Of a stretch of 7,875 nt of DNA, positions 1 through 7,875 are shown one piece after another; position 1 is the first letter of the stretch; each line of letters starts with the position of its first letter. The notes below the pieces were generated by a model. It was not told the DNA's origin. It made no database searches and was given only the letters and a program-made list of their open reading frames with translations. The position numbers and the translations under genes were made by a program. The DNA comes from Naegleria gruberi (taxonomy: Eukaryota). The DNA is taken from NCBI GenBank assembly GCA_000004985.1, contig GG739100.1. One strand, 5' to 3'.

Positions 1-37
1 ATAACGTGTGCTGTTCCGTATAGTCTCTATGAGTATA

Positions 38-64
38 CAACAACAACAACAACAAACAACAAAA
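38..64. repeat. (CAA)6 microsatellite followed by a CAA/A-rich tail (acaacaaaa)
   Basis: A perfect (CAA)6 read directly from the sequence at 38-55, then acaacaaaa. Confidence 0.9.
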
Positions 65-379
65 TAACACTCCTAATATCGCGATAGATACGATTCAACA
101 ATGTGTATGTTGAGGTGTAGAGTATTAGTAAATGTACAAGGGATTGTGTGGTTTTATTTTTTTGCTGCTTGGAACAAAATAATGGAAAAGGCGAACGGTC
201 TTTGCAAATTCATTCCTTATTGGATCTTGAGACAGACAAATTTGTGGAGTGAGCATTTTACGTAAAGCTTTACTGTCGAACACATTTGAAGACATTTAAC
301 GTTGTTGCTTGAAAATTGAAAGATTATAATGAATGAACGGTAGAGTATTATTCTAAATGTGTTGAAATTGTTACCTTAA

Positions 380-487
380 TAAAAAATTCAAATGATATAT
401 CATGTTTGAGAATTGAAAATGAATCTTGAACAGAGAAAGAAGAAATTATGACATGATTTCAATGTAGAAACACAATGTTCTCTATCT
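380..487 (-). terminator. probable OYE 3' UTR / polyadenylation region (yeast-type AT-rich signals; ATATAT at 395-400; A-rich tracts)
   Basis: An AT-rich stretch directly downstream of the minus-strand stop codon with a TATATA-type efficiency element about 90 nt from the stop. This is weak, motif-level evidence only. Confidence 0.25.
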
Positions 488-1603
488 TTATTTTCTTGGG
501 AATGCAAACATGTATTGAGGAGGAACAGCGACTGGGTAATCCAAATCTTGAGCAGCTCTAATTGGCCAGTAAGGATCATTCAAATCTTGTCTTCCAATTA
601 ATACTAAATCTGCCTTTCCATCCTTCACTAAATCATTAGCAAATTTAGCTTCCACTATTTTACCAACTGCACCAGTGGCCAATCCATCAACTGATTTCTT
701 GACGCCCTCAGAGAATGGAACTTGATAACCTTGCACAATTCCAATTGGTGAAATTTTGGCTTTGGCATTATTACCACCAGATGAACAGTCCAACAAGTCA
801 ACTCCAGAATCACGTAAAATCTTTGCTAGCTCTGTAGTGTCTTTCATGGTCCAGCCCTCTTCACCAACGTATTCATCAGCTGAAACTCTGACAAATAATG
901 GCATTTCAGTTGGAATATTCTCTCTAATTCTTTGAACAATTTCAATCAAGAATCTAATACGATTTTCGAATGATCCACCATAAGCATCAGTTCTTTGATT
1001 TGAAGTTGGTGAAAGGAATGAGGAAATTAAATATCCGTGAGCTCCATGAATTTCAATAACATCAAATCCTGCCTTAACAGCTCTCTTAGCAGCATCCACA
1101 AATTGTTGAATCACTTCTTGAATTTGTTCAATGGACAATTCTGCAGGAACTTTGTGATTATCATCAAATGCAATTGGAGATGGACCAATAACGTCCCATC
1201 CTCCTTCTTCGTTTGTCAATGCTTTTCTTCCTAGAGCTTCCCACAATCTTCCAGTTGATGCCTTTCTACCAGCATGACCTATTTGTATTCCGATATGTCC
1301 ACCCTGTTCGTGTGTAAATTGACAAATTTTAGACAACATGTCAACATGTTCATCTTTGTAAATTCCTAAACATCCTGGTGAAATTCTACCAATATCCGAA
1401 ACACCAGTGGCTTCTACAATAAATAAACCAGCTCCACCTACAATTCTACTGCCAATATGTTGAACATGCCAGAAATTAGCAAATCCATCAACCGATGAGT
1501 ACTGACACATTGGGGAGACGACAATACGATTCTTTAAAGTCAATCCTCTAATTTTGAATGGTTGAAAGAGTGGAGGAACGGATGAGATATCTTGTGCTGA
1601 CAT
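488..1603 (-). CDS. Old Yellow Enzyme family NADPH dehydrogenase / NADH:flavin oxidoreductase, YqjM/NamA-like (class II 'thermophilic-like' OYE), intron-less, 371 aa
   Basis: Complete ORF. The ATG is the complement of 1601-1603, preceded on the coding strand by aaaaaaaATGTCA, a strong yeast Kozak context. The TAA is the complement of 488-490. The translation carries the OYE hallmarks: SPMCQYSS (the Cys/Tyr pair typical of YqjM-type enzymes, where class I OYEs have Thr), GIQIGHAGRKA, GFDVIEIHGAHGYLISSFLSPTSNQRTDAYGGSFENRIRFL, PLFVRVSADEY, GVDLLDCSSGG, GYQVPF, ADLVLIGR, and a C-terminal QY…PRK Arg-finger-like tail. From memory it is block-by-block collinear with Bacillus subtilis YqjM. Codon usage is host-like, with no CTG codons. 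Confidence 0.9.
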   Translation of the reverse strand: MSAQDISSVPPLFQPFKIRGLTLKNRIVVSPMCQYSSVDGFANFWHVQHIGSRIVGGAGLFIVEATGVSDIGRISPGCLGIYKDEHVDMLSKICQFTHEQGGHIGIQIGHAGRKASTGRLWEALGRKALTNEEGGWDVIGPSPIAFDDNHKVPAELSIEQIQEVIQQFVDAAKRAVKAGFDVIEIHGAHGYLISSFLSPTSNQRTDAYGGSFENRIRFLIEIVQRIRENIPTEMPLFVRVSADEYVGEEGWTMKDTTELAKILRDSGVDLLDCSSGGNNAKAKISPIGIVQGYQVPFSEGVKKSVDGLATGAVGKIVEAKFANDLVKDGKADLVLIGRQDLNDPYWPIRAAQDLDYPVAVPPQYMFAFPRK

Positions 1604-1617
1604 TTTTTTAATGGTTG
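1603..1617. repeat. target-site duplication, left copy (tttttttaatggttg); overlaps the OYE start codon by 1 nt
   Basis: An exact 15/15 match to 7170-7184. Similarity stops immediately outside the repeat (gctgaca vs taaaaga, only 2 of 7 positions match). Confidence 0.65.
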
Positions 1618-4600
1618 NNNNNNNNNNNNNNNNNNNNNNNNNNNNNNNNNNNNNNNNNNNNNNNNNNNNNNNNNNNNNNNNNNNNNNNNNNNNNNNNNNN
1701 NNNNNNNNNNNNNNNNNNNNNNNNNNNNNNNNNNNNNNNNNNNNNNNNNNNNNNNNNNNNNNNNNNNNNNNNNNNNNNNNNNNNNNNNNNNNNNNNNNNN
1801 NNNNNNNNNNNNNNNNNNNNNNNNNNNNNNNNNNNNNNNNNNNNNNNNNNNNNNNNNNNNNNNNNNNNNNNNNNNNNNNNNNNNNNNNNNNNNNNNNNNN
1901 NNNNNNNNNNNNNNNNNNNNNNNNNNNNNNNNNNNNNNNNNNNNNNNNNNNNNNNNNNNNNNNNNNNNNNNNNNNNNNNNNNNNNNNNNNNNNNNNNNNN
2001 NNNNNNNNNNNNNNNNNNNNNNNNNNNNNNNNNNNNNNNNNNNNNNNNNNNNNNNNNNNNNNNNNNNNNNNNNNNNNNNNNNNNNNNNNNNNNNNNNNNN
2101 NNNNNNNNNNNNNNNNNNNNNNNNNNNNNNNNNNNNNNNNNNNNNNNNNNNNNNNNNNNNNNNNNNNNNNNNNNNNNNNNNNNNNNNNNNNNNNNNNNNN
2201 NNNNNNNNNNNNNNNNNNNNNNNNNNNNNNNNNNNNNNNNNNNNNNNNNNNNNNNNNNNNNNNNNNNNNNNNNNNNNNNNNNNNNNNNNNNNNNNNNNNN
2301 NNNNNNNNNNNNNNNNNNNNNNNNNNNNNNNNNNNNNNNNNNNNNNNNNNNNNNNNNNNNNNNNNNNNNNNNNNNNNNNNNNNNNNNNNNNNNNNNNNNN
2401 NNNNNNNNNNNNNNNNNNNNNNNNNNNNNNNNNNNNNNNNNNNNNNNNNNNNNNNNNNNNNNNNNNNNNNNNNNNNNNNNNNNNNNNNNNNNNNNNNNNN
2501 NNNNNNNNNNNNNNNNNNNNNNNNNNNNNNNNNNNNNNNNNNNNNNNNNNNNNNNNNNNNNNNNNNNNNNNNNNNNNNNNNNNNNNNNNNNNNNNNNNNN
2601 NNNNNNNNNNNNNNNNNNNNNNNNNNNNNNNNNNNNNNNNNNNNNNNNNNNNNNNNNNNNNNNNNNNNNNNNNNNNNNNNNNNNNNNNNNNNNNNNNNNN
2701 NNNNNNNNNNNNNNNNNNNNNNNNNNNNNNNNNNNNNNNNNNNNNNNNNNNNNNNNNNNNNNNNNNNNNNNNNNNNNNNNNNNNNNNNNNNNNNNNNNNN
2801 NNNNNNNNNNNNNNNNNNNNNNNNNNNNNNNNNNNNNNNNNNNNNNNNNNNNNNNNNNNNNNNNNNNNNNNNNNNNNNNNNNNNNNNNNNNNNNNNNNNN
2901 NNNNNNNNNNNNNNNNNNNNNNNNNNNNNNNNNNNNNNNNNNNNNNNNNNNNNNNNNNNNNNNNNNNNNNNNNNNNNNNNNNNNNNNNNNNNNNNNNNNN
3001 NNNNNNNNNNNNNNNNNNNNNNNNNNNNNNNNNNNNNNNNNNNNNNNNNNNNNNNNNNNNNNNNNNNNNNNNNNNNNNNNNNNNNNNNNNNNNNNNNNNN
3101 NNNNNNNNNNNNNNNNNNNNNNNNNNNNNNNNNNNNNNNNNNNNNNNNNNNNNNNNNNNNNNNNNNNNNNNNNNNNNNNNNNNNNNNNNNNNNNNNNNNN
3201 NNNNNNNNNNNNNNNNNNNNNNNNNNNNNNNNNNNNNNNNNNNNNNNNNNNNNNNNNNNNNNNNNNNNNNNNNNNNNNNNNNNNNNNNNNNNNNNNNNNN
3301 NNNNNNNNNNNNNNNNNNNNNNNNNNNNNNNNNNNNNNNNNNNNNNNNNNNNNNNNNNNNNNNNNNNNNNNNNNNNNNNNNNNNNNNNNNNNNNNNNNNN
3401 NNNNNNNNNNNNNNNNNNNNNNNNNNNNNNNNNNNNNNNNNNNNNNNNNNNNNNNNNNNNNNNNNNNNNNNNNNNNNNNNNNNNNNNNNNNNNNNNNNNN
3501 NNNNNNNNNNNNNNNNNNNNNNNNNNNNNNNNNNNNNNNNNNNNNNNNNNNNNNNNNNNNNNNNNNNNNNNNNNNNNNNNNNNNNNNNNNNNNNNNNNNN
3601 NNNNNNNNNNNNNNNNNNNNNNNNNNNNNNNNNNNNNNNNNNNNNNNNNNNNNNNNNNNNNNNNNNNNNNNNNNNNNNNNNNNNNNNNNNNNNNNNNNNN
3701 NNNNNNNNNNNNNNNNNNNNNNNNNNNNNNNNNNNNNNNNNNNNNNNNNNNNNNNNNNNNNNNNNNNNNNNNNNNNNNNNNNNNNNNNNNNNNNNNNNNN
3801 NNNNNNNNNNNNNNNNNNNNNNNNNNNNNNNNNNNNNNNNNNNNNNNNNNNNNNNNNNNNNNNNNNNNNNNNNNNNNNNNNNNNNNNNNNNNNNNNNNNN
3901 NNNNNNNNNNNNNNNNNNNNNNNNNNNNNNNNNNNNNNNNNNNNNNNNNNNNNNNNNNNNNNNNNNNNNNNNNNNNNNNNNNNNNNNNNNNNNNNNNNNN
4001 NNNNNNNNNNNNNNNNNNNNNNNNNNNNNNNNNNNNNNNNNNNNNNNNNNNNNNNNNNNNNNNNNNNNNNNNNNNNNNNNNNNNNNNNNNNNNNNNNNNN
4101 NNNNNNNNNNNNNNNNNNNNNNNNNNNNNNNNNNNNNNNNNNNNNNNNNNNNNNNNNNNNNNNNNNNNNNNNNNNNNNNNNNNNNNNNNNNNNNNNNNNN
4201 NNNNNNNNNNNNNNNNNNNNNNNNNNNNNNNNNNNNNNNNNNNNNNNNNNNNNNNNNNNNNNNNNNNNNNNNNNNNNNNNNNNNNNNNNNNNNNNNNNNN
4301 NNNNNNNNNNNNNNNNNNNNNNNNNNNNNNNNNNNNNNNNNNNNNNNNNNNNNNNNNNNNNNNNNNNNNNNNNNNNNNNNNNNNNNNNNNNNNNNNNNNN
4401 NNNNNNNNNNNNNNNNNNNNNNNNNNNNNNNNNNNNNNNNNNNNNNNNNNNNNNNNNNNNNNNNNNNNNNNNNNNNNNNNNNNNNNNNNNNNNNNNNNNN
4501 NNNNNNNNNNNNNNNNNNNNNNNNNNNNNNNNNNNNNNNNNNNNNNNNNNNNNNNNNNNNNNNNNNNNNNNNNNNNNNNNNNNNNNNNNNNNNNNNNNNN

Positions 4601-6454
4601 NNNNNNNNNNNNNNNNNNNNNNNNNNNNNNNNNNNNNNNNNNNNNNNNNNNNNNNNNNNNNNNNNNNNNNNNNNNNNNNNNNNNNNNNNNNNNNNNNNNN
4701 NNNNNNNNNNNNNNNNNNNNNNNNNNNNNNNNNNNNNNNNNNNNNNNNNNNNNNNNNNNNNNNNNNNNNNNNNNNNNNNNNNNNNNNNNNNNNNNNNNNN
4801 NNNNNNNNNNNNNNNNNNNNNNNNNNNNNNNNNNNNNNNNNNNNNNNNNNNNNNNNNNNNNNNNNNNNNNNNNNNNNNNNNNNNNNNNNNNNNNNNNNNN
4901 NNNNNNNNNNNNNNNNNNNNNNNNNNNNNNNNNNNNNNNNNNNNNNNNNNNNNNNNNNNNNNNNNNNNNNNNNNNNNNNNNNNNNNNNNNNNNNNNNNNN
5001 NNNNNNNNNNNNNNNNNNNNNNNNNNNNNNNNNNNNNNNNNNNNNNNNNNNNNNNNNNNNNNNNNNNNNNNNNNNNNNNNNNNNNNNNNNNNNNNNNNNN
5101 NNNNNNNNNNNNNNNNNNNNNNNNNNNNNNNNNNNNNNNNNNNNNNNNNNNNNNNNNNNNNNNNNNNNNNNNNNNNNNNNNNNNNNNNNNNNNNNNNNNN
5201 NNNNNNNNNNNNNNNNNNNNNNNNNNNNNNNNNNNNNNNNNNNNNNNNNNNNNNNNNNNNNNNNNNNNNNNNNNNNNNNNNNNNNNNNNNNNNNNNNNNN
5301 NNNNNNNNNNNNNNNNNNNNNNNNNNNNNNNNNNNNNNNNNNNNNNNNNNNNNNNNNNNNNNNNNNNNNNNNNNNNNNNNNNNNNNNNNNNNNNNNNNNN
5401 NNNNNNNNNNNNNNNNNNNNNNNNNNNNNNNNNNNNNNNNNNNNNNNNNNNNNNNNNNNNNNNNNNNNNNNNNNNNNNNNNNNNNNNNNNNNNNNNNNNN
5501 NNNNNNNNNNNNNNNNNNNNNNNNNNNNNNNNNNNNNNNNNNNNNNNNNNNNNNNNNNNNNNNNNNNNNNNNNNNNNNNNNNNNNNNNNNNNNNNNNNNN
5601 NNNNNNNNNNNNNNNNNNNNNNNNNNNNNNNNNNNNNNNNNNNNNNNNNNNNNNNNNNNNNNNNNNNNNNNNNNNNNNNNNNNNNNNNNNNNNNNNNNNN
5701 NNNNNNNNNNNNNNNNNNNNNNNNNNNNNNNNNNNNNNNNNNNNNNNNNNNNNNNNNNNNNNNNNNNNNNNNNNNNNNNNNNNNNNNNNNNNNNNNNNNN
5801 NNNNNNNNNNNNNNNNNNNNNNNNNNNNNNNNNNNNNNNNNNNNNNNNNNNNNNNNNNNNNNNNNNNNNNNNNNNNNNNNNNNNNNNNNNNNNNNNNNNN
5901 NNNNNNNNNNNNNNNNNNNNNNNNNNNNNNNNNNNNNNNNNNNNNNNNNNNNNNNNNNNNNNNNNNNNNNNNNNNNNNNNNNNNNNNNNNNNNNNNNNNN
6001 NNNNNNNNNNNNNNNNNNNNNNNNNNNNNNNNNNNNNNNNNNNNNNNNNNNNNNNNNNNNNNNNNNNNNNNNNNNNNNNNNNNNNNNNNNNNNNNNNNNN
6101 NNNNNNNNNNNNNNNNNNNNNNNNNNNNNNNNNNNNNNNNNNNNNNNNNNNNNNNNNNNNNNNNNNNNNNNNNNNNNNNNNNNNNNNNNNNNNNNNNNNN
6201 NNNNNNNNNNNNNNNNNNNNNNNNNNNNNNNNNNNNNNNNNNNNNNNNNNNNNNNNNNNNNNNNNNNNNNNNNNNNNNNNNNNNNNNNNNNNNNNNNNNN
6301 NNNNNNNNNNNNNNNNNNNNNNNNNNNNNNNNNNNNNNNNNNNNNNNNNNNNNNNNNNNNNNNNNNNNNNNNNNNNNNNNNNNNNNNNNNNNNNNNNNNN
6401 NNNNNNNNNNNNNNNNNNNNNNNNNNNNNNNNNNNNNNNNNNNNNNNNNNNNNN
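1618..6454. other. assembly gap / masked block (4,837 N)
   Basis: An uninterrupted run of n. The non-round length suggests a scaffold gap of estimated size. Every X-filled ORF in the track (1540..6474-, 1608..6458-, 1611..6467+, and the N part of 1615..7116+) is an artifact of translating N. Confidence 1.
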
Positions 6455-6456
6455 TC

Positions 6457-7116
6457 AAGAAAGTTGAAGCTCATAAGGATAAGGAAAATATCAAAGTTGA
6501 TTTATTGGCAAAGAATGCAACTCTGAAACCTAAAATCTTTGATATCCGTAAACTACTCTTTAATCAATATATCCTCACAAAGAACGATATTATAATCTTT
6601 GACTATAAGAGGTTAACTACCTCACAACATTTAAGGATAATGCTTGACAAGATAGAGAGTCACCCCAATCACATACCTAACCTAGATTGGAACTCTATCA
6701 ACGTCAGCTACCTTAAATCCCATTTGTCTCCTAAATCTAAATATTATATTTGGAGAAACTCTTCAAATGCCCACATCAATTTTGGTGAGGGTAAAAGTTT
6801 CTGTCATGATTGTAACACAGAATCTGACCTTAATCACTATATTCATGAATGCCCTGCTCTGGATAGTGCCAGATACTTTTGCTTGTCAAAAATATCTGAT
6901 ATTCTTGATCAGAGAGAGTGTAAACTCACTCATATTCAATTCAGACCAGAAAAGCATCACCATGTACTCTTCTTCCACCATTCTGGAACCACATTCTTCG
7001 AAGATGGATACGTACAACAATACCCAGACATTGCAGAGAAATGGCCTGAGATTCAGGGAGCCATTTCTAACTTTGTCGGCCGCTCCTATAGATATTATTA
7101 TATTGACTCAATGTAA
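6457..7116 (+). CDS. 3' fragment (219 codons + stop) of LINE ORF2: end of RNase H domain followed by a CCHC zinc knuckle and a ~90-aa C-terminal tail; 5' part lies in the gap
   Basis: The frame is open from the first non-N base to TAA at 7114-7116. KKVEAHKDKENIKVDLLAKNA matches the RNase H C-terminal signature (H…N-x-x-[AV]-D-x-LAK-x-A). CHDCNTESDLNHYIHEC is C-X2-C-X7-H-X4-C, the zinc knuckle found at the C-terminal end of ORF2 in many non-LTR retrotransposon clades. It is not the HHCC finger of an integrase. The fragment contains two CTG codons (6523-6525, 6859-6861). Confidence 0.75.
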   Translation, partial: KKVEAHKDKENIKVDLLAKNATLKPKIFDIRKLLFNQYILTKNDIIIFDYKRLTTSQHLRIMLDKIESHPNHIPNLDWNSINVSYLKSHLSPKSKYYIWRNSSNAHINFGEGKSFCHDCNTESDLNHYIHECPALDSARYFCLSKISDILDQRECKLTHIQFRPEKHHHVLFFHHSGTTFFEDGYVQQYPDIAEKWPEIQGAISNFVGRSYRYYYIDSM

Positions 7117-7169
7117 ATTTACAAATTCAAAGAGAATCTGAATAGATTCGTTATTATTGCAATAAAAGA
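7117..7169 (+). other. LINE 3' UTR (53 bp) containing AATAAA (7161-7166); no appreciable poly(A) or simple-repeat tail before the TSD
   Basis: This is the sequence between the ORF2 stop codon and the right TSD copy. Confidence 0.5.
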
Positions 7170-7184
7170 TTTTTTTAATGGTTG
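7170..7184. repeat. target-site duplication, right copy (tttttttaatggttg)
   Basis: An exact 15/15 match to 1603-1617. It lies directly after the LINE 3' UTR, which ends …gcaataaaaga. Confidence 0.65.
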
Positions 7185-7440
7185 TTGAGTGAATTGAGTG
7201 CGACAGAGATTATTGTTGAAAACTATTTATTTCATAGAGAGAGTTGATGAAAATGCGTCCTTTCTTGTTGTGAAGTTCCAAACTATTAGCAGAGGAAGCA
7301 TAAATCATCTGGTGAGGTTGCACAATTATTATCTTACGACTTTGTGCGTTTCAACAAAGTTTCCGAGACTTTCCGACTAGGTTGAAGATAACAAACTTCC
7401 GATACTAAATTATTTCAACTTTATACAAACAATAGCAATT
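7185..7440 (-). promoter_or_regulatory. displaced native 5' flank/promoter of the OYE gene: TATAAAG (minus strand, 7425..7419), tandem TTTCCGA at 7360-7366 and 7370-7376 (10-bp phase), tandem TTGAGTG/CACTCAA at 7185-7191 and 7194-7200
   Basis: If the element and one TSD copy are removed, 7185 onward becomes contiguous with the OYE ATG. The TATA box would then sit about 250 bp upstream of the ATG, and the CACTCAA repeats would lie in the 5' leader. This is inference from the TSD geometry and there are no expression data. Confidence 0.3.
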
Positions 7441-7649
7441 TTACTCAATCATCATGTTGAATATCATGCAAAGATCACACCCCAATCAAAACCTCTTTAT
7501 TCCCTCATCAATTCCATCACCAAAACATTCAATCTTAATACATATTGCAACAAATATTAAATAAATTGAAAAAAATGAAAAACCACAAACACCCATTTAT
7601 TTTTTGTTGGTAAAATTTGCAGAGCATGAAGGATTTGTTAGTAGATAGA

Positions 7650-7817
7650 CATGTGTTCAGACCACAATCCCGAAATCTCTAACATACCGTAATGGGCAAG
7701 TTTCTGGCTTCTGGTGTGGTCTGATATAGTAAGCCGTCTTCAGATTAACGTGATGCTGTCAAGATTTGCATTGCAGGGTCCGTTCTGGTTTCGTTACATC
7801 CAACCTTTTGTTTTTTT
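7650..7817 (+). ncRNA. candidate small structured RNA / Pol III-like unit of unknown identity: 9-bp perfect inverted repeat (cagaccaca 7658-7666 / tgtggtctg 7724-7732) in a GC-richer island ending in T4GT7 (7806-7817)
   Basis: GC content rises locally compared with the AT-rich flanks. There is a long perfect stem. The T-tract looks like a Pol III terminator or an Sm site. I found no tRNA A/B boxes and no convincing match to U1, U2, U4, U5, U6, U3 or 5S from memory. This is speculative. Confidence 0.15.
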
Positions 7818-7875
7818 GGATTTAAAATAATTAAAGATGGATTTTAATTATTATTTAATTATTTAAATAAAAATG

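What the first reader, a model, noticed from the sequence alone, without database searches (positions are those of the whole stretch)
488..1603. Bacterial-type (YqjM/NamA, class II) Old Yellow Enzyme embedded in a yeast-like genomic context: possible ancient horizontal acquisition
The protein carries the YqjM-class diagnostic SPMCQYS, a Cys in place of the Thr found in classical fungal OYE1/2/3-type enzymes. From recall it is collinear with Bacillus YqjM across essentially all conserved blocks, including the C-terminal Tyr/Arg tail. The gene is intron-less, uses host-typical codons (AGA, TTG/TTA, CAA; zero CTG), has a textbook yeast AAAAAAATGTC start context, and has AT-rich eukaryotic flanks plus a eukaryotic LINE next door. 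It therefore belongs to the host genome and is not contamination. Class II OYEs are mainly bacterial, so a fully ameliorated copy in a yeast suggests an old bacterium-to-fungus transfer or a poorly described fungal OYE lineage.
Basis: partly seen in the sequence, partly recalled or inferred. Interest (0 to 1): 0.55.

Follow-up and report, generated by a model that had tools for sequence, protein, structure and literature searches.

The report
Naegleria Old Yellow Enzyme gene, not yeast
The ORF is a real, intact YqjM-type ("thermophilic-like") Old Yellow Enzyme gene, but it belongs to the amoeboflagellate Naegleria gruberi rather than a yeast, sits in a family shared by other heteroloboseans, and a recent bacterial origin is not supported.

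Summary
Window 488-1603 (minus strand) encodes an intact 371-aa FMN oxidoreductase of the YqjM/TsOYE type. It carries C33, Y35, H186, H189 and Y191, and its best solved relative is the Thermus scotoductus ene-reductase (E 1e-110). The protein is 100% identical to GenBank XP_002668376.1 (NAEGRDRAFT_44902) of Naegleria gruberi, whose contig is 7875 bp, the same length as this window. The "yeast" context is therefore wrong.

It is not contamination. A 369/371-identical allele lies on a 337-kb scaffold. Homologues in N. lovaniensis and Willaertia lie among eukaryotic genes, and one has a GT-AG intron. GC3 is 23%.

Heterolobosean copies form one clade (NJ bootstrap 94-100%). Similar enzymes also occur in Dictyostelium, Luapelamoeba and diverse fungi. 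A rough ML placement puts the clade at a deep node, and sister to the other eukaryotes fits about as well as the best placement. Every branch leading only to bacteria is at least 10 lnL worse. A heterolobosean-specific bacterial transfer is not demonstrated.

The YqjM arginine finger is Phe366 here. The "LINE" is mostly an N run. However, a 16-bp target-site duplication and an independent empty-site contig show that about 5.5 kb was inserted about 14 bp upstream of the ATG.

Verdict: an ordinary, uncharacterised member of a known family.

The parts
488..1603 (-). Intact 371-aa ORF for a thermophilic-like (YqjM/TsOYE-type) Old Yellow Enzyme. It equals N. gruberi NAEGRDRAFT_44902 (XP_002668376.1).
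   Evidence: ORF list. Pfam Oxidored_FMN 267.6 bits. PDB best hit TsOYE 3hf3/8uaj, E 1e-110 to 1e-111. 100% identity to P0001. AF2 model pLDDT 91.5, TM 0.91-0.93 to CaOYE and TsOYE.
1496..1516 (-). SPMCQYS motif. Cys33 corresponds to YqjM Cys26 and Tyr35 to YqjM Tyr28.
   Evidence: Coordinates. Column mapping to YqjM. Both residues are invariant in all 15 heterolobosean sequences.
1031..1048 (-). HGAHGY motif. His186 and His189 correspond to YqjM His164 and His167. Tyr191 corresponds to the YqjM Tyr169 proton donor.
   Evidence: invariant columns. In N. lovaniensis a spliceosomal intron splits this motif.
506..508 (-). Codon TTT for Phe366, in the alignment column of the YqjM Arg336 'arginine finger'.
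   Evidence: Heteroloboseans have F9/Y4/L1/R1 at this column; the other 162 sequences have R87/W16/Y10/F8. Sequence read directly.
1602..1617 (.). Proximal copy of the 16-bp direct repeat ATTTTTTTAATGGTTG (target-site duplication). It overlaps the first two bases of the ATG.
   Evidence: the only 16-mer shared, at 1602 and 7169..
1618..6454 (.). Run of 4837 N. This is the unsequenced or masked body of the inserted element.
6455..7168 (+). Visible 3' end of the inserted element. An ORF tail runs 6457-7116 with a CX2CX7HX4C motif at 6802-6852, followed by 52 nt of 3' sequence ending ...GCAATAAAAG.
   Evidence: No Pfam domain. One homologue, P0126, at 45% identity. No relatives in the metagenome scan. 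Absent from the empty-site contig L004.
7169..7184 (.). Distal copy of the 16-bp target-site duplication.
7185..7872 (.). Native upstream (promoter-side) intergenic region of the OYE gene, displaced about 5.5 kb from the ORF by the insertion.
   Evidence: 97.5% identical to L004 192-877, which abuts the ORF directly in L004.
7873..7875 (+). ATG of the divergently transcribed neighbouring gene, which runs off the window.
   Evidence: L004 has a called gene at 3-194 (-) whose start aligns with the end of the window.
1..487 (.). 3' flank of the OYE gene (31% GC). No gene is called here.
   Evidence: 98.7% identical to L004 downstream of the ORF. Composition.

Best explanation
This is a nuclear gene of Naegleria gruberi (Heterolobosea). 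It encodes a cytosolic FMN-dependent NAD(P)H ene-reductase of the thermophilic-like (YqjM/TsOYE) branch of the Old Yellow Enzyme family.

Inferred mechanism, from family knowledge:
- NAD(P)H reduces the FMN bound in a TIM barrel.
- Reduced FMN passes a hydride to C-beta of an activated alkene, whose electron-withdrawing group is held by His186 and His189.
- Tyr191 protonates C-alpha.
- Cys33 and Tyr35 line the flavin and substrate pocket.
- The residue that in YqjM reaches into the neighbouring subunit's active site (Arg336) is Phe366 here, and Phe or Tyr in nearly all heteroloboseans. The shared active site probably has an aromatic rather than a cationic lid, and so a somewhat different substrate or cofactor preference.

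Evolution: the gene is one of at least three N. gruberi loci. It belongs to a clade that includes N. lovaniensis, Willaertia magna and Heterolobosea sp. BB2, so it was present before these lineages split, was inherited vertically, and duplicated within lineages. Its deeper origin is unresolved. The clade branches at a deep node. It is as compatible with a common origin with the amoebozoan and fungal enzymes as with a separate ancient transfer. It is not nested in any sampled bacterial phylum.

This scaffold: it is most likely the alternative haplotype of NAEGRDRAFT_60833. It was probably assembled separately because an element of about 5.5 kb, probably LINE-like, inserted head-to-head about 14 bp upstream of the ATG with a 16-bp target-site duplication.
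For: Identity and host:
- 100% match to the N. gruberi protein on a 7875-bp contig.
- An allele with 369/371 identity lies on a 337-kb scaffold.

Enzyme class:
- Pfam, PDB and NCBIfam results.
- 46% identity to YqjM and 51% to TsOYE by Foldseek, with TM 0.91.
- Catalytic residues are invariant.

Integration in eukaryotic genomes:
- Neighbours in the homologue loci are filamin/IQGAP, CYRI, P-type ATPase, RIO1, PPR and CLN5 genes.
- The N. lovaniensis copy has a 167-nt GT..AG intron.
- GC3 is 0.23.

Heterolobosean clade:
- NJ bootstrap is 100% with 94 taxa and 94-96% with 75 taxa. The branching order is BB2, then Willaertia, then Naegleria.

Presence in other eukaryotes.

Deep placement:
- ML scan with 90 taxa: the top three placements all lie at the node that joins the eukaryote assemblage and the bacterial cluster.
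- Sister to the other eukaryotes is 0.28 lnL worse than the best placement.
- The best branch leading only to bacteria is 10.3 lnL worse (compare).
- NJ recovers an all-eukaryote versus bacteria split in 36-54% of replicates once the long branches and the outgroup are removed. Heteroloboseans group with bacteria, excluding the other eukaryotes, in 12-15%.

Insertion:
- 16-bp duplication.
- Empty-site contig L004, with 97.5-99.4% identical flanks and ORF and no insert.
- L004 carries the same I139V and I262V substitutions as the large-scaffold allele.
Against: - No expression or biochemical data were examined, so FMN binding, cofactor preference and oligomeric state are inferred.
- The highest pairwise identities are to bacteria (53-58%), not to other eukaryotes (42-49%). 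That is the pattern a bacterial transfer would give.
- My trees are NJ. The ML scan is home-made (Gonnet-derived matrix +F+G4) and run on a fixed NJ backbone. The backbone is star-like, and long-branch attraction among eukaryotic sequences could mimic eukaryote affinity.
- The allelic status of this scaffold is inferred. I could not read the 337-kb scaffold.
- The insertion separates the ORF from its native promoter, so this particular allele may be poorly expressed.
Confidence: 0.72

Rival explanations
1. Lineage-specific horizontal transfer. A bacterial YqjM/TsOYE-type gene was acquired by an ancestor of Naegleria, Willaertia and BB2, independently of the fungal and amoebozoan genes, and then ameliorated and duplicated.
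For: - The best non-heterolobosean hits are bacterial (Bacteroidota, Acidobacteriota, Pseudomonadota and others) at 53-58% identity and 413-436 bits. Fungal PDB entries reach 42-46% and 300-322 bits.
- Among the top 120 hits, the only entries with EukProt as a source are heterolobosean.
- Naegleria is a bacterivore (my own knowledge).
Against: - No bacterial sister group appears. The NJ sister is purely bacterial in only 14-16% of replicates.
- ML placements on branches leading only to bacteria are at least 10 lnL or at least 25 lnL worse than the best.
- The nearest bacteria span at least 8 phyla with no donor signal.
- The same enzyme type is widespread in Amoebozoa and Fungi.
Confidence: 0.3
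2. One reading: a yeast (fungal) gene acquired from bacteria, or a member of a fungal OYE lineage.
For: Only composition supports it: AT-rich DNA, AGA/TTG/CAA codons, no CTG, and an A-rich start context.
Against: - Exact identity to an N. gruberi protein and contig length.
- The nearest relatives are Naegleria and Willaertia at 60-85% identity. Fungal enzymes are 42-46% identical and fall in a separate cluster.
Confidence: 0.01
3. Bacterial contamination of the N. gruberi assembly. A small 7.9-kb scaffold with a bacterial-looking gene fits that profile, and this assembly is reported to contain contaminant proteins (PMC10831095).
For: - The scaffold is small and the closest non-heterolobosean hits are bacterial.
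- The ContScout paper lists N. gruberi among contaminated genomes.
Against: - A near-identical allele lies on a 337-kb scaffold.
- There are paralogues on scaffolds of 233 kb and 291 kb.
- Homologues in two other genera are flanked by eukaryotic genes, and one has an intron.
- GC3 is 0.23 and the flanks are 31-33% GC.
- The same locus was recovered independently in an ENA assembly.
Confidence: 0.01
4. This particular copy is a silenced or decaying allele. The insertion about 14 bp upstream of the ATG cut the ORF off from its promoter, so the scaffold carries a non-functional haplotype while the function is supplied by NAEGRDRAFT_60833 and its paralogues.
For: - The insertion lies between the ORF and 690 bp of native upstream sequence.
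- A related strain's copy (L004) has lost 28 nt including the ATG at the same spot. That suggests the 5' end is a fragile or dispensable site.
Against: - The ORF is fully intact, with only two conservative differences (I139V, I262V) from the other allele.
- dN/dS against L004 is 0.21, although this rests on only 7 differences.
- A head-to-head element could supply an antisense promoter (speculation).
Confidence: 0.2

Closest known systems
Thermus scotoductus SA-01 ene-reductase / chromate reductase (TsOYE, CrS; PDB 3HF3, 8UAJ) and Chloroflexus aggregans CaOYE (7O0T)
   Same: - They are the best solved relatives: E 6e-111 to 4e-106, 48-51% identity, TM 0.91-0.93, rmsd 1.3-1.4 A.
- They share the TIM barrel, the SPMCQYS and H-x-x-H-G-Y motifs, and a C-terminal QY.
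   Different: - TsOYE has QYQRG with the Arg finger, where the window protein has QYMFA.
- The window protein has longer loops, including 7 extra residues after AGRKAS and 3 after SGG (alignment).
- The host is a mesophilic eukaryote.
Bacillus subtilis YqjM / NamA (PDB 1Z41)
   Same: - 46% identity over 355 aa.
- Cys26, Tyr28, His164, His167 and Tyr169 are all conserved. PMC4002455 lists these as the substrate-binding set.
   Different: - Arg336 is replaced by Phe366.
- The NCBIfam NamA equivalog score of 374 bits is below the 431-bit cutoff.
- YqjM lacks the 17-residue loop at 113-130.
Eukaryotic thermophilic-like OYEs: fungal AnOYE8 (7QFX), BfOYE4 (7BLF), AfOYE1 (8J59) and the Penicillium steckii ER (8S4P); Dictyostelium discoideum XP_637191; Blastocladiella, Smittium, Saitoella and Luapelamoeba homologues
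   Same: - Same OYE branch, in eukaryotic nuclear genomes (PMC8954901, PMC10787880).
- An ML placement as sister to this assemblage is only 0.28 lnL from the best.
   Different: - Only 42-49% identical.
- They carry 30-50-residue N-terminal extensions.
- Most of the fungal ones have a 2-residue insertion after GGW and a different C-terminus (GQIRWG).
- A specific relationship is not supported by bootstrap.
Pseudomonas putida XenA (PDB 2H8X and others)
   Same: - A thermophilic-like OYE in which the finger from the neighbouring subunit is aromatic (Trp) rather than Arg (stated in PMC4002455).
- 16 of 162 non-heterolobosean sequences have W in the finger column.
   Different: - 42% identity.
- I did not verify that XenA Trp358 falls in the same alignment column as Phe366.

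Membership tests
Thermophilic-like / YqjM-type OYE (Class II of Nizam et al.; called Class III in some later OYE papers, e.g. PMC8954901) | Oxidored_FMN (beta/alpha)8 barrel | tested here: met
   Pfam PF00724 267.6 bits, profile positions 2-339 of 342. AF2 model pLDDT 91.5. TM 0.84-0.93 to solved members.
Thermophilic-like / YqjM-type OYE | Cys (YqjM C26) in place of the Thr of classical OYE1, plus Tyr28 | tested here: met
   C33 and Y35 lie in SPMCQYS and are invariant in all 15 heteroloboseans.
Thermophilic-like / YqjM-type OYE | His/His pair (YqjM H164, H167) and the Tyr169 proton donor | tested here: met
   H186, H189 and Y191.
Thermophilic-like / YqjM-type OYE | C-terminal Arg finger (YqjM R336) reaching into the neighbouring subunit's active site | tested here: not met
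   The aligned column holds F366. Heteroloboseans have F9/Y4/L1/R1. An Arg (R370) lies 4 residues downstream, but bacteria with QYERAKPRK have both Arg residues. Aromatic (Trp) fingers are accepted variants in the class (PMC4002455).
Thermophilic-like / YqjM-type OYE | Sequence closer to thermophilic-like than to classical OYEs | tested here: met
   E 1e-80 to 1e-111 against TsOYE, CaOYE, YqjM and XenA, compared with 1e-31 to 1e-35 against OPR, PETNR, NemA and other classical OYE entries.
Thermophilic-like / YqjM-type OYE | Dimer-of-dimers with a shared active site; FMN binding; NAD(P)H-dependent C=C reduction | not testable with these tools
   Needs recombinant protein. No multimer model was made.
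NamA equivalog (NCBIfam NF010047) | Score at or above the curated cutoff (431 bits) | tested here: not met
   374.3 bits.
Yeast / fungal gene | Encoded in a fungal genome | tested here: not met
   Exact match to N. gruberi EFC35632.1 on a 7875-bp contig. Lineage Discoba; Heterolobosea.
Bacterium-to-eukaryote HGT gene | Recipient clade nested within a bacterial donor clade with support | tested here: not met
   No supported bacterial sister. Placements on branches leading only to bacteria are at least 10 lnL worse than the best. The methods are weak (NJ and a home-made ML scan), so this is not a strong rejection.
Bacterium-to-eukaryote HGT gene | Absence from other eukaryotes (patchy distribution) | tested here: inconclusive
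   Among the top 120 hits, no non-heterolobosean entry has EukProt as a source. However, Dictyostelium, Luapelamoeba and diverse fungi have the same enzyme type at slightly lower scores, and one unidentified eukaryotic contig groups with the heteroloboseans.
Bacterium-to-eukaryote HGT gene | Physically integrated in the host genome (not contamination) | tested here: met
Non-LTR retrotransposon (LINE), for the neighbouring insert | Reverse transcriptase and endonuclease domains | not testable with these tools
   The body of the element is N (1618-6454). The visible tail has no Pfam hit.
Non-LTR retrotransposon (LINE), for the neighbouring insert | Insertion flanked by a long target-site duplication, with an empty site elsewhere | tested here: met
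   16-bp duplication. Empty site in L004. The 5' junction itself is not sequenced, because the flank stops exactly at the duplication.

The most novel reading that the evidence does not exclude
Two possibilities remain open.
1. The heterolobosean enzymes, together with those of Amoebozoa and Fungi, form one ancient eukaryotic lineage of thermophilic-like OYEs. That lineage would stem from a single early acquisition or from the last eukaryotic common ancestor, not from repeated bacterial transfers.
2. Within that lineage, Heterolobosea define a subclass in which the inter-subunit Arg finger is replaced by Phe or Tyr.

Separately, the head-to-head insertion about 14 bp upstream of the ATG could make this allele depend on an antisense promoter in the element.
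Probability: 0.35. Interest if true: 0.4.

Novelty: new member of a known kind. Interest (0 to 1): 0.2.

Why it matters
Little changes for biology at large. The protein is already in GenBank and UniProt as an uncharacterised 'predicted protein', and thermophilic-like OYEs are already known from eukaryotes (fungi).

Three practical points follow:
1. AT-rich, CTG-free, A-rich-start sequence is not diagnostic of yeast.
2. A bacterial-looking gene on a tiny scaffold of an assembly known to contain contaminants can still be shown to be host DNA.
3. Heteroloboseans hold a multi-copy family of YqjM-type ene-reductases with an aromatic finger. That family could interest biocatalysis groups, and anyone asking how widely and how anciently this OYE branch occurs in eukaryotes.

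Tried and rejected
- Exact-protein contig look-ups for the window protein and its allele P0121 found nothing on record. I therefore could not read the 337-kb N. gruberi scaffold. The ENA contig L004 served as the empty-site control instead.
- The afdb50 fold library was unavailable, so there was no taxonomic survey by structure.
- A homologue search with the LINE tail gave one hit with no domain. A metagenome scan for relatives gave none. The element's class remains unverified.
- The supplement of PMC8954901 holds no usable sequences. I recovered fungal PDB sequences from HMMER alignments instead.
- A PDB search meant to retrieve XenA and check the Trp-finger column did not bring XenA into the displayed alignments, so I dropped that check.
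- Rfam and tRNA scans of the window found nothing at gathering thresholds. The weak hits in 7185-7875 are noise. Folding of the GC-richer patch 7640-7800 was not significant (z -1.3 and -1.9).
- Literature searches for Naegleria plus OYE, for the locus tags, and for the accessions of L004 and L085 found nothing relevant. The N. gruberi genome paper is not held, so I could not check its HGT list.
- I looked for a bacterial group sharing the Phe/Tyr finger and the loop insertion, as a possible donor. Sequences with F or Y are scattered and not close. The loop insertion is homoplastic; Hymenobacter has it too.
- The 3519-aa 'multi-OYE' representative P0214 is an OYE plus Na/H exchanger gene model. 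I think it is probably a fused gene model.
Full report
WHAT IS THERE. The window is 7875 bases, of which 1618-6454 are N. On the minus strand, 488-1603 is an uninterrupted 371-codon ORF. Pfam assigns it to Oxidored_FMN (267.6 bits, residues 12-354). Against solved structures the best matches are the thermophilic-like Old Yellow Enzymes:
- Thermus scotoductus TsOYE/CrS: E 6e-111 to 9e-111
- Chloroflexus CaOYE: 4e-106
- fungal entries 8S4P and 7BLF: 3e-95 and 1e-92
- YqjM: 2e-89
- XenA: about 1e-81

Classical OYE, OPR and PETNR enzymes reach only about 1e-31 to 1e-35. An AlphaFold model built on a 32-sequence alignment is confident (pLDDT 91.5). It superposes on CaOYE, TsOYE and YqjM at TM 0.86-0.93. 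I had recalled the YqjM sequence from memory and verified it as identical to PDB 1Z41. BLASTP against it gives 46% identity over 355 residues.

PMC4002455 lists the YqjM substrate-binding residues as Cys26, Tyr28, His164, His167, Tyr169 and Arg336. These map to C33, Y35, H186, H189, Y191 and F366. Five of the six are therefore present, but the arginine finger is a phenylalanine.

WHOSE GENE IT IS. The translated ORF is 100% identical to a protein recorded as 'predicted protein [Naegleria gruberi]'. Its accessions are EFC35632.1, XP_002668376.1, NAEGRDRAFT_44902 and UniProt D2W5M0. Its only contig is 7875 bp long, the same length as this window. N. gruberi is a heterolobosean (Discoba), not a fungus. 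AT-rich DNA, AGA/TTG/CAA codons and A-rich start contexts are simply shared by many AT-rich eukaryotes.

NOT CONTAMINATION. The N. gruberi assembly is listed among genomes with contaminant proteins (PMC10831095). A bacterial-looking gene on a small scaffold therefore needed checking. Five lines of evidence show it is host DNA:
- A 369/371-identical copy (NAEGRDRAFT_60833) lies on a 337-kb scaffold. Paralogues lie on scaffolds of 291 kb (84% identity) and 233 kb (61%).
- Homologues in N. lovaniensis (396-kb contig), Willaertia magna (406-kb contig) and a 27-kb metagenomic contig are flanked by plainly eukaryotic genes: filamin/IQGAP, CYRI, P-type ATPase, RIO1, PPR and CLN5.
- The N. lovaniensis gene contains a 167-nt GT..AG intron inside the HGAHGY codons.
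- GC3 is 0.23 and the flanks are 31-33% GC.
- An independent ENA assembly (L004) contains the same locus.

THE NEIGHBOURING INSERT. The 16-mer ATTTTTTTAATGGTTG occurs at 1602-1617, directly before the N run, and again at 7169-7184. Between the two copies lie the N run and 714 readable bases. The readable part holds the tail of a plus-strand ORF (6457-7116) with a CX2CX7HX4C motif.

In L004, the sequence homologous to window 7185-7875 (97.5% identity) joins directly to the 5' end of the ORF (99.4% identity). The 3' flank also matches (98.7%). Nothing in L004 resembles the element. L004 carries the same two substitutions (I139V, I262V) that distinguish the large-scaffold allele. So about 5.5 kb was inserted about 14 bp upstream of the ATG, head-to-head with the gene, in this haplotype only.

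A 16-bp duplication and a long ORF running to the 3' end fit a non-LTR retrotransposon (my own knowledge). But the visible tail has no Pfam domain, has one metagenomic homologue and has no relatives in a metagenome scan. The 5' junction is not sequenced. 'LINE' therefore remains a reasonable guess, not a result.

The insertion separates the ORF from its native upstream region. Whether this allele is expressed is unknown. The ORF itself shows no decay.

FAMILY AND ORIGIN. After the heterolobosean hits (59-85% identity), every named hit in the top 120 is bacterial, at 53-58%. A scan of one genome per prokaryotic species finds relatives at 46-55% identity in Bacteroidota, Cyanobacteria, Pseudomonadota, Acidobacteriota, Verrucomicrobiota, Actinomycetota, Chloroflexota and others, with no obvious donor. 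A heterolobosean profile gives a sharp score gap between members (at least 567 bits) and everything else (at most 546 bits).

In NJ trees the heterolobosean sequences are monophyletic (100% of 200 replicates with 94 taxa). The internal order is BB2, then Willaertia, then Naegleria, which is what vertical descent with lineage-specific duplication predicts. One further sequence (P0117) joins them at 94-96% bootstrap in the 75-taxon set. It comes from an unidentified eukaryotic contig next to a SCAMP gene.

The profile search of 50%-identity representatives changed the picture. Among the best-scoring representatives are proteins of Dictyostelium discoideum (XP_637191), Luapelamoeba hula, Blastocladiella emersonii, Smittium culicis and Saitoella. 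These add to the structurally characterised Aspergillus, Penicillium and Botrytis enzymes. YqjM-type OYEs are therefore widespread in eukaryotes, and 'mainly bacterial, hence transferred' is a weak premise.

In a focused set, the NJ sister of the heterolobosean clade is purely eukaryotic in 38-41% of replicates and purely bacterial in 14-16%. That set holds 15 heteroloboseans plus P0117, 9 other eukaryotes and 50 bacteria. With the long bacterial branches and the outgroup removed, a split of all eukaryotes against all bacteria appears in 36-54% of replicates. Heteroloboseans group with bacteria, excluding the other eukaryotes, in 12-15%.

I also wrote a rough ML placement scan, using a Gonnet-derived matrix +F+G4 on a fixed NJ backbone with ML branch lengths:
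- With 90 taxa, including 15 extra outgroups, the three best placements carry likelihood weights of 0.49, 0.37 and 0.12. All three sit at the deep node where the eukaryote assemblage and the bacterial cluster meet.
- Sister to the other eukaryotes is only 0.28 lnL worse than the best.
- The stem of the bacterial cluster is 4.6 lnL worse.
- The best branch leading only to bacteria is 10.3 lnL worse.
- The 75-taxon scan agrees.

These methods are crude, and long-branch attraction is a live concern. I conclude only three things:
- The gene has been in Heterolobosea since before the Naegleria, Willaertia and BB2 split.
- Nothing nests it inside a sampled bacterial lineage.
- A common origin with other eukaryotic enzymes fits about as well as the best placement found, while a separate, very old transfer is not excluded.

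HOW IT PROBABLY WORKS. By homology, the protein is an FMN-dependent NAD(P)H:activated-alkene reductase. NAD(P)H gives a hydride to FMN, and FMN gives it to C-beta of the substrate. His186 and His189 polarise the activating group, and Tyr191 protonates C-alpha. This is all inferred from the family; nothing was measured here.

The consistent Phe or Tyr at the finger column in heteroloboseans is the one active-site-level peculiarity (F9/Y4/L1/R1, against R87/W16/Y10/F8 in other sequences). Aromatic fingers are known in the class, as with the XenA Trp (PMC4002455), and arise repeatedly. This is therefore a variant, not a new type. The physiological role is not known. Detoxification of reactive enones, quinones or nitro compounds is a common suggestion for the family (my own knowledge).

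VERDICT. This is an ordinary, uncharacterised member of a known enzyme branch in a published genome. It misidentified the host, and it proposed a transfer that the evidence does not establish. I found no paper describing heterolobosean OYEs. It therefore counts as a new member of a known kind, and interest is low.

Noticed in passing
window 1618-6454: 61% of the window is a single run of 4837 N. The readable left flank stops exactly at the end of the 16-bp duplication, as expected if an assembler broke at a repeat boundary.
   Followed up: partly
L004 878-887, compared with window 1580-1617 (minus strand): The empty-site contig lacks 28 nt present in the window, including the A-run and the first 8 codons with the ATG. 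It reads CAAACATTATGTTCC where the window has CAACCATTAAAAAAATGTCAGCACAAGATATCTCATCCGTTCC. No in-frame start is left, and the gene caller starts at Met32. This could be a strain variant, a pseudogene or an assembly error.
   Followed up: partly
L001 10611-10777 (N. lovaniensis PYSW02000040.1): A 167-nt GT..AG intron, in phase 1, splits the Ala codon of the catalytic HGAHGY motif. It is absent from the N. gruberi, Willaertia and metagenomic copies, so it looks like a lineage-specific intron gain.
   Followed up: partly
L085 (GCA_006365135.1, VFQM010008585.1), gene 1391-2557: A 388-aa OYE (P0117) from an unidentified eukaryote groups with the heteroloboseans (NJ 94-96% in the 75-taxon set, about 70% in larger sets) but keeps the Arg finger (QYQRA). 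The contig is 38% GC, has tightly packed genes and carries a SCAMP-domain neighbour. I could not identify the organism.
   Followed up: partly
search results: No N. fowleri protein appears among the hits, although its sister species N. lovaniensis has a copy. The gene may be missing from the pathogen, or its proteome may be missing from the database.
   Followed up: no
window 7640-7800: A GC-richer patch in the AT-rich intergenic region contains a 9-bp inverted repeat (CAGACCACA / TGTGGTCTG) and is almost invariant between the window and L004. There is no Rfam family, and folding is not better than shuffles (z -1.3 and -1.9).
   Followed up: yes
window 7873-7875: The window ends on the ATG of a divergently oriented neighbouring gene (L004 3-194, minus strand there). 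The native OYE-to-neighbour intergenic distance is about 0.7 kb, stretched to about 6.3 kb by the insert.
   Followed up: partly
Willaertia magna contig of 268,928 bp (P0017 ABK040_012425 and P0123 ABK040_012379): Two OYE paralogues of the same 90% cluster lie on one contig, about 46 locus tags apart. Together with two further Willaertia copies, this points to repeated local duplication of the family.
   Followed up: no
P0214 (3519 aa, representative library): A giant gene model has split OYE segments followed by a Na/H-exchanger domain. It is probably a fused or mis-joined eukaryotic gene model rather than a real multidomain enzyme.
   Followed up: partly
window 38-66: A short (CAA)n-like microsatellite, caacaacaacaacaacaaacaacaaaa, lies in the 3' flank of the OYE gene.
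   Followed up: no
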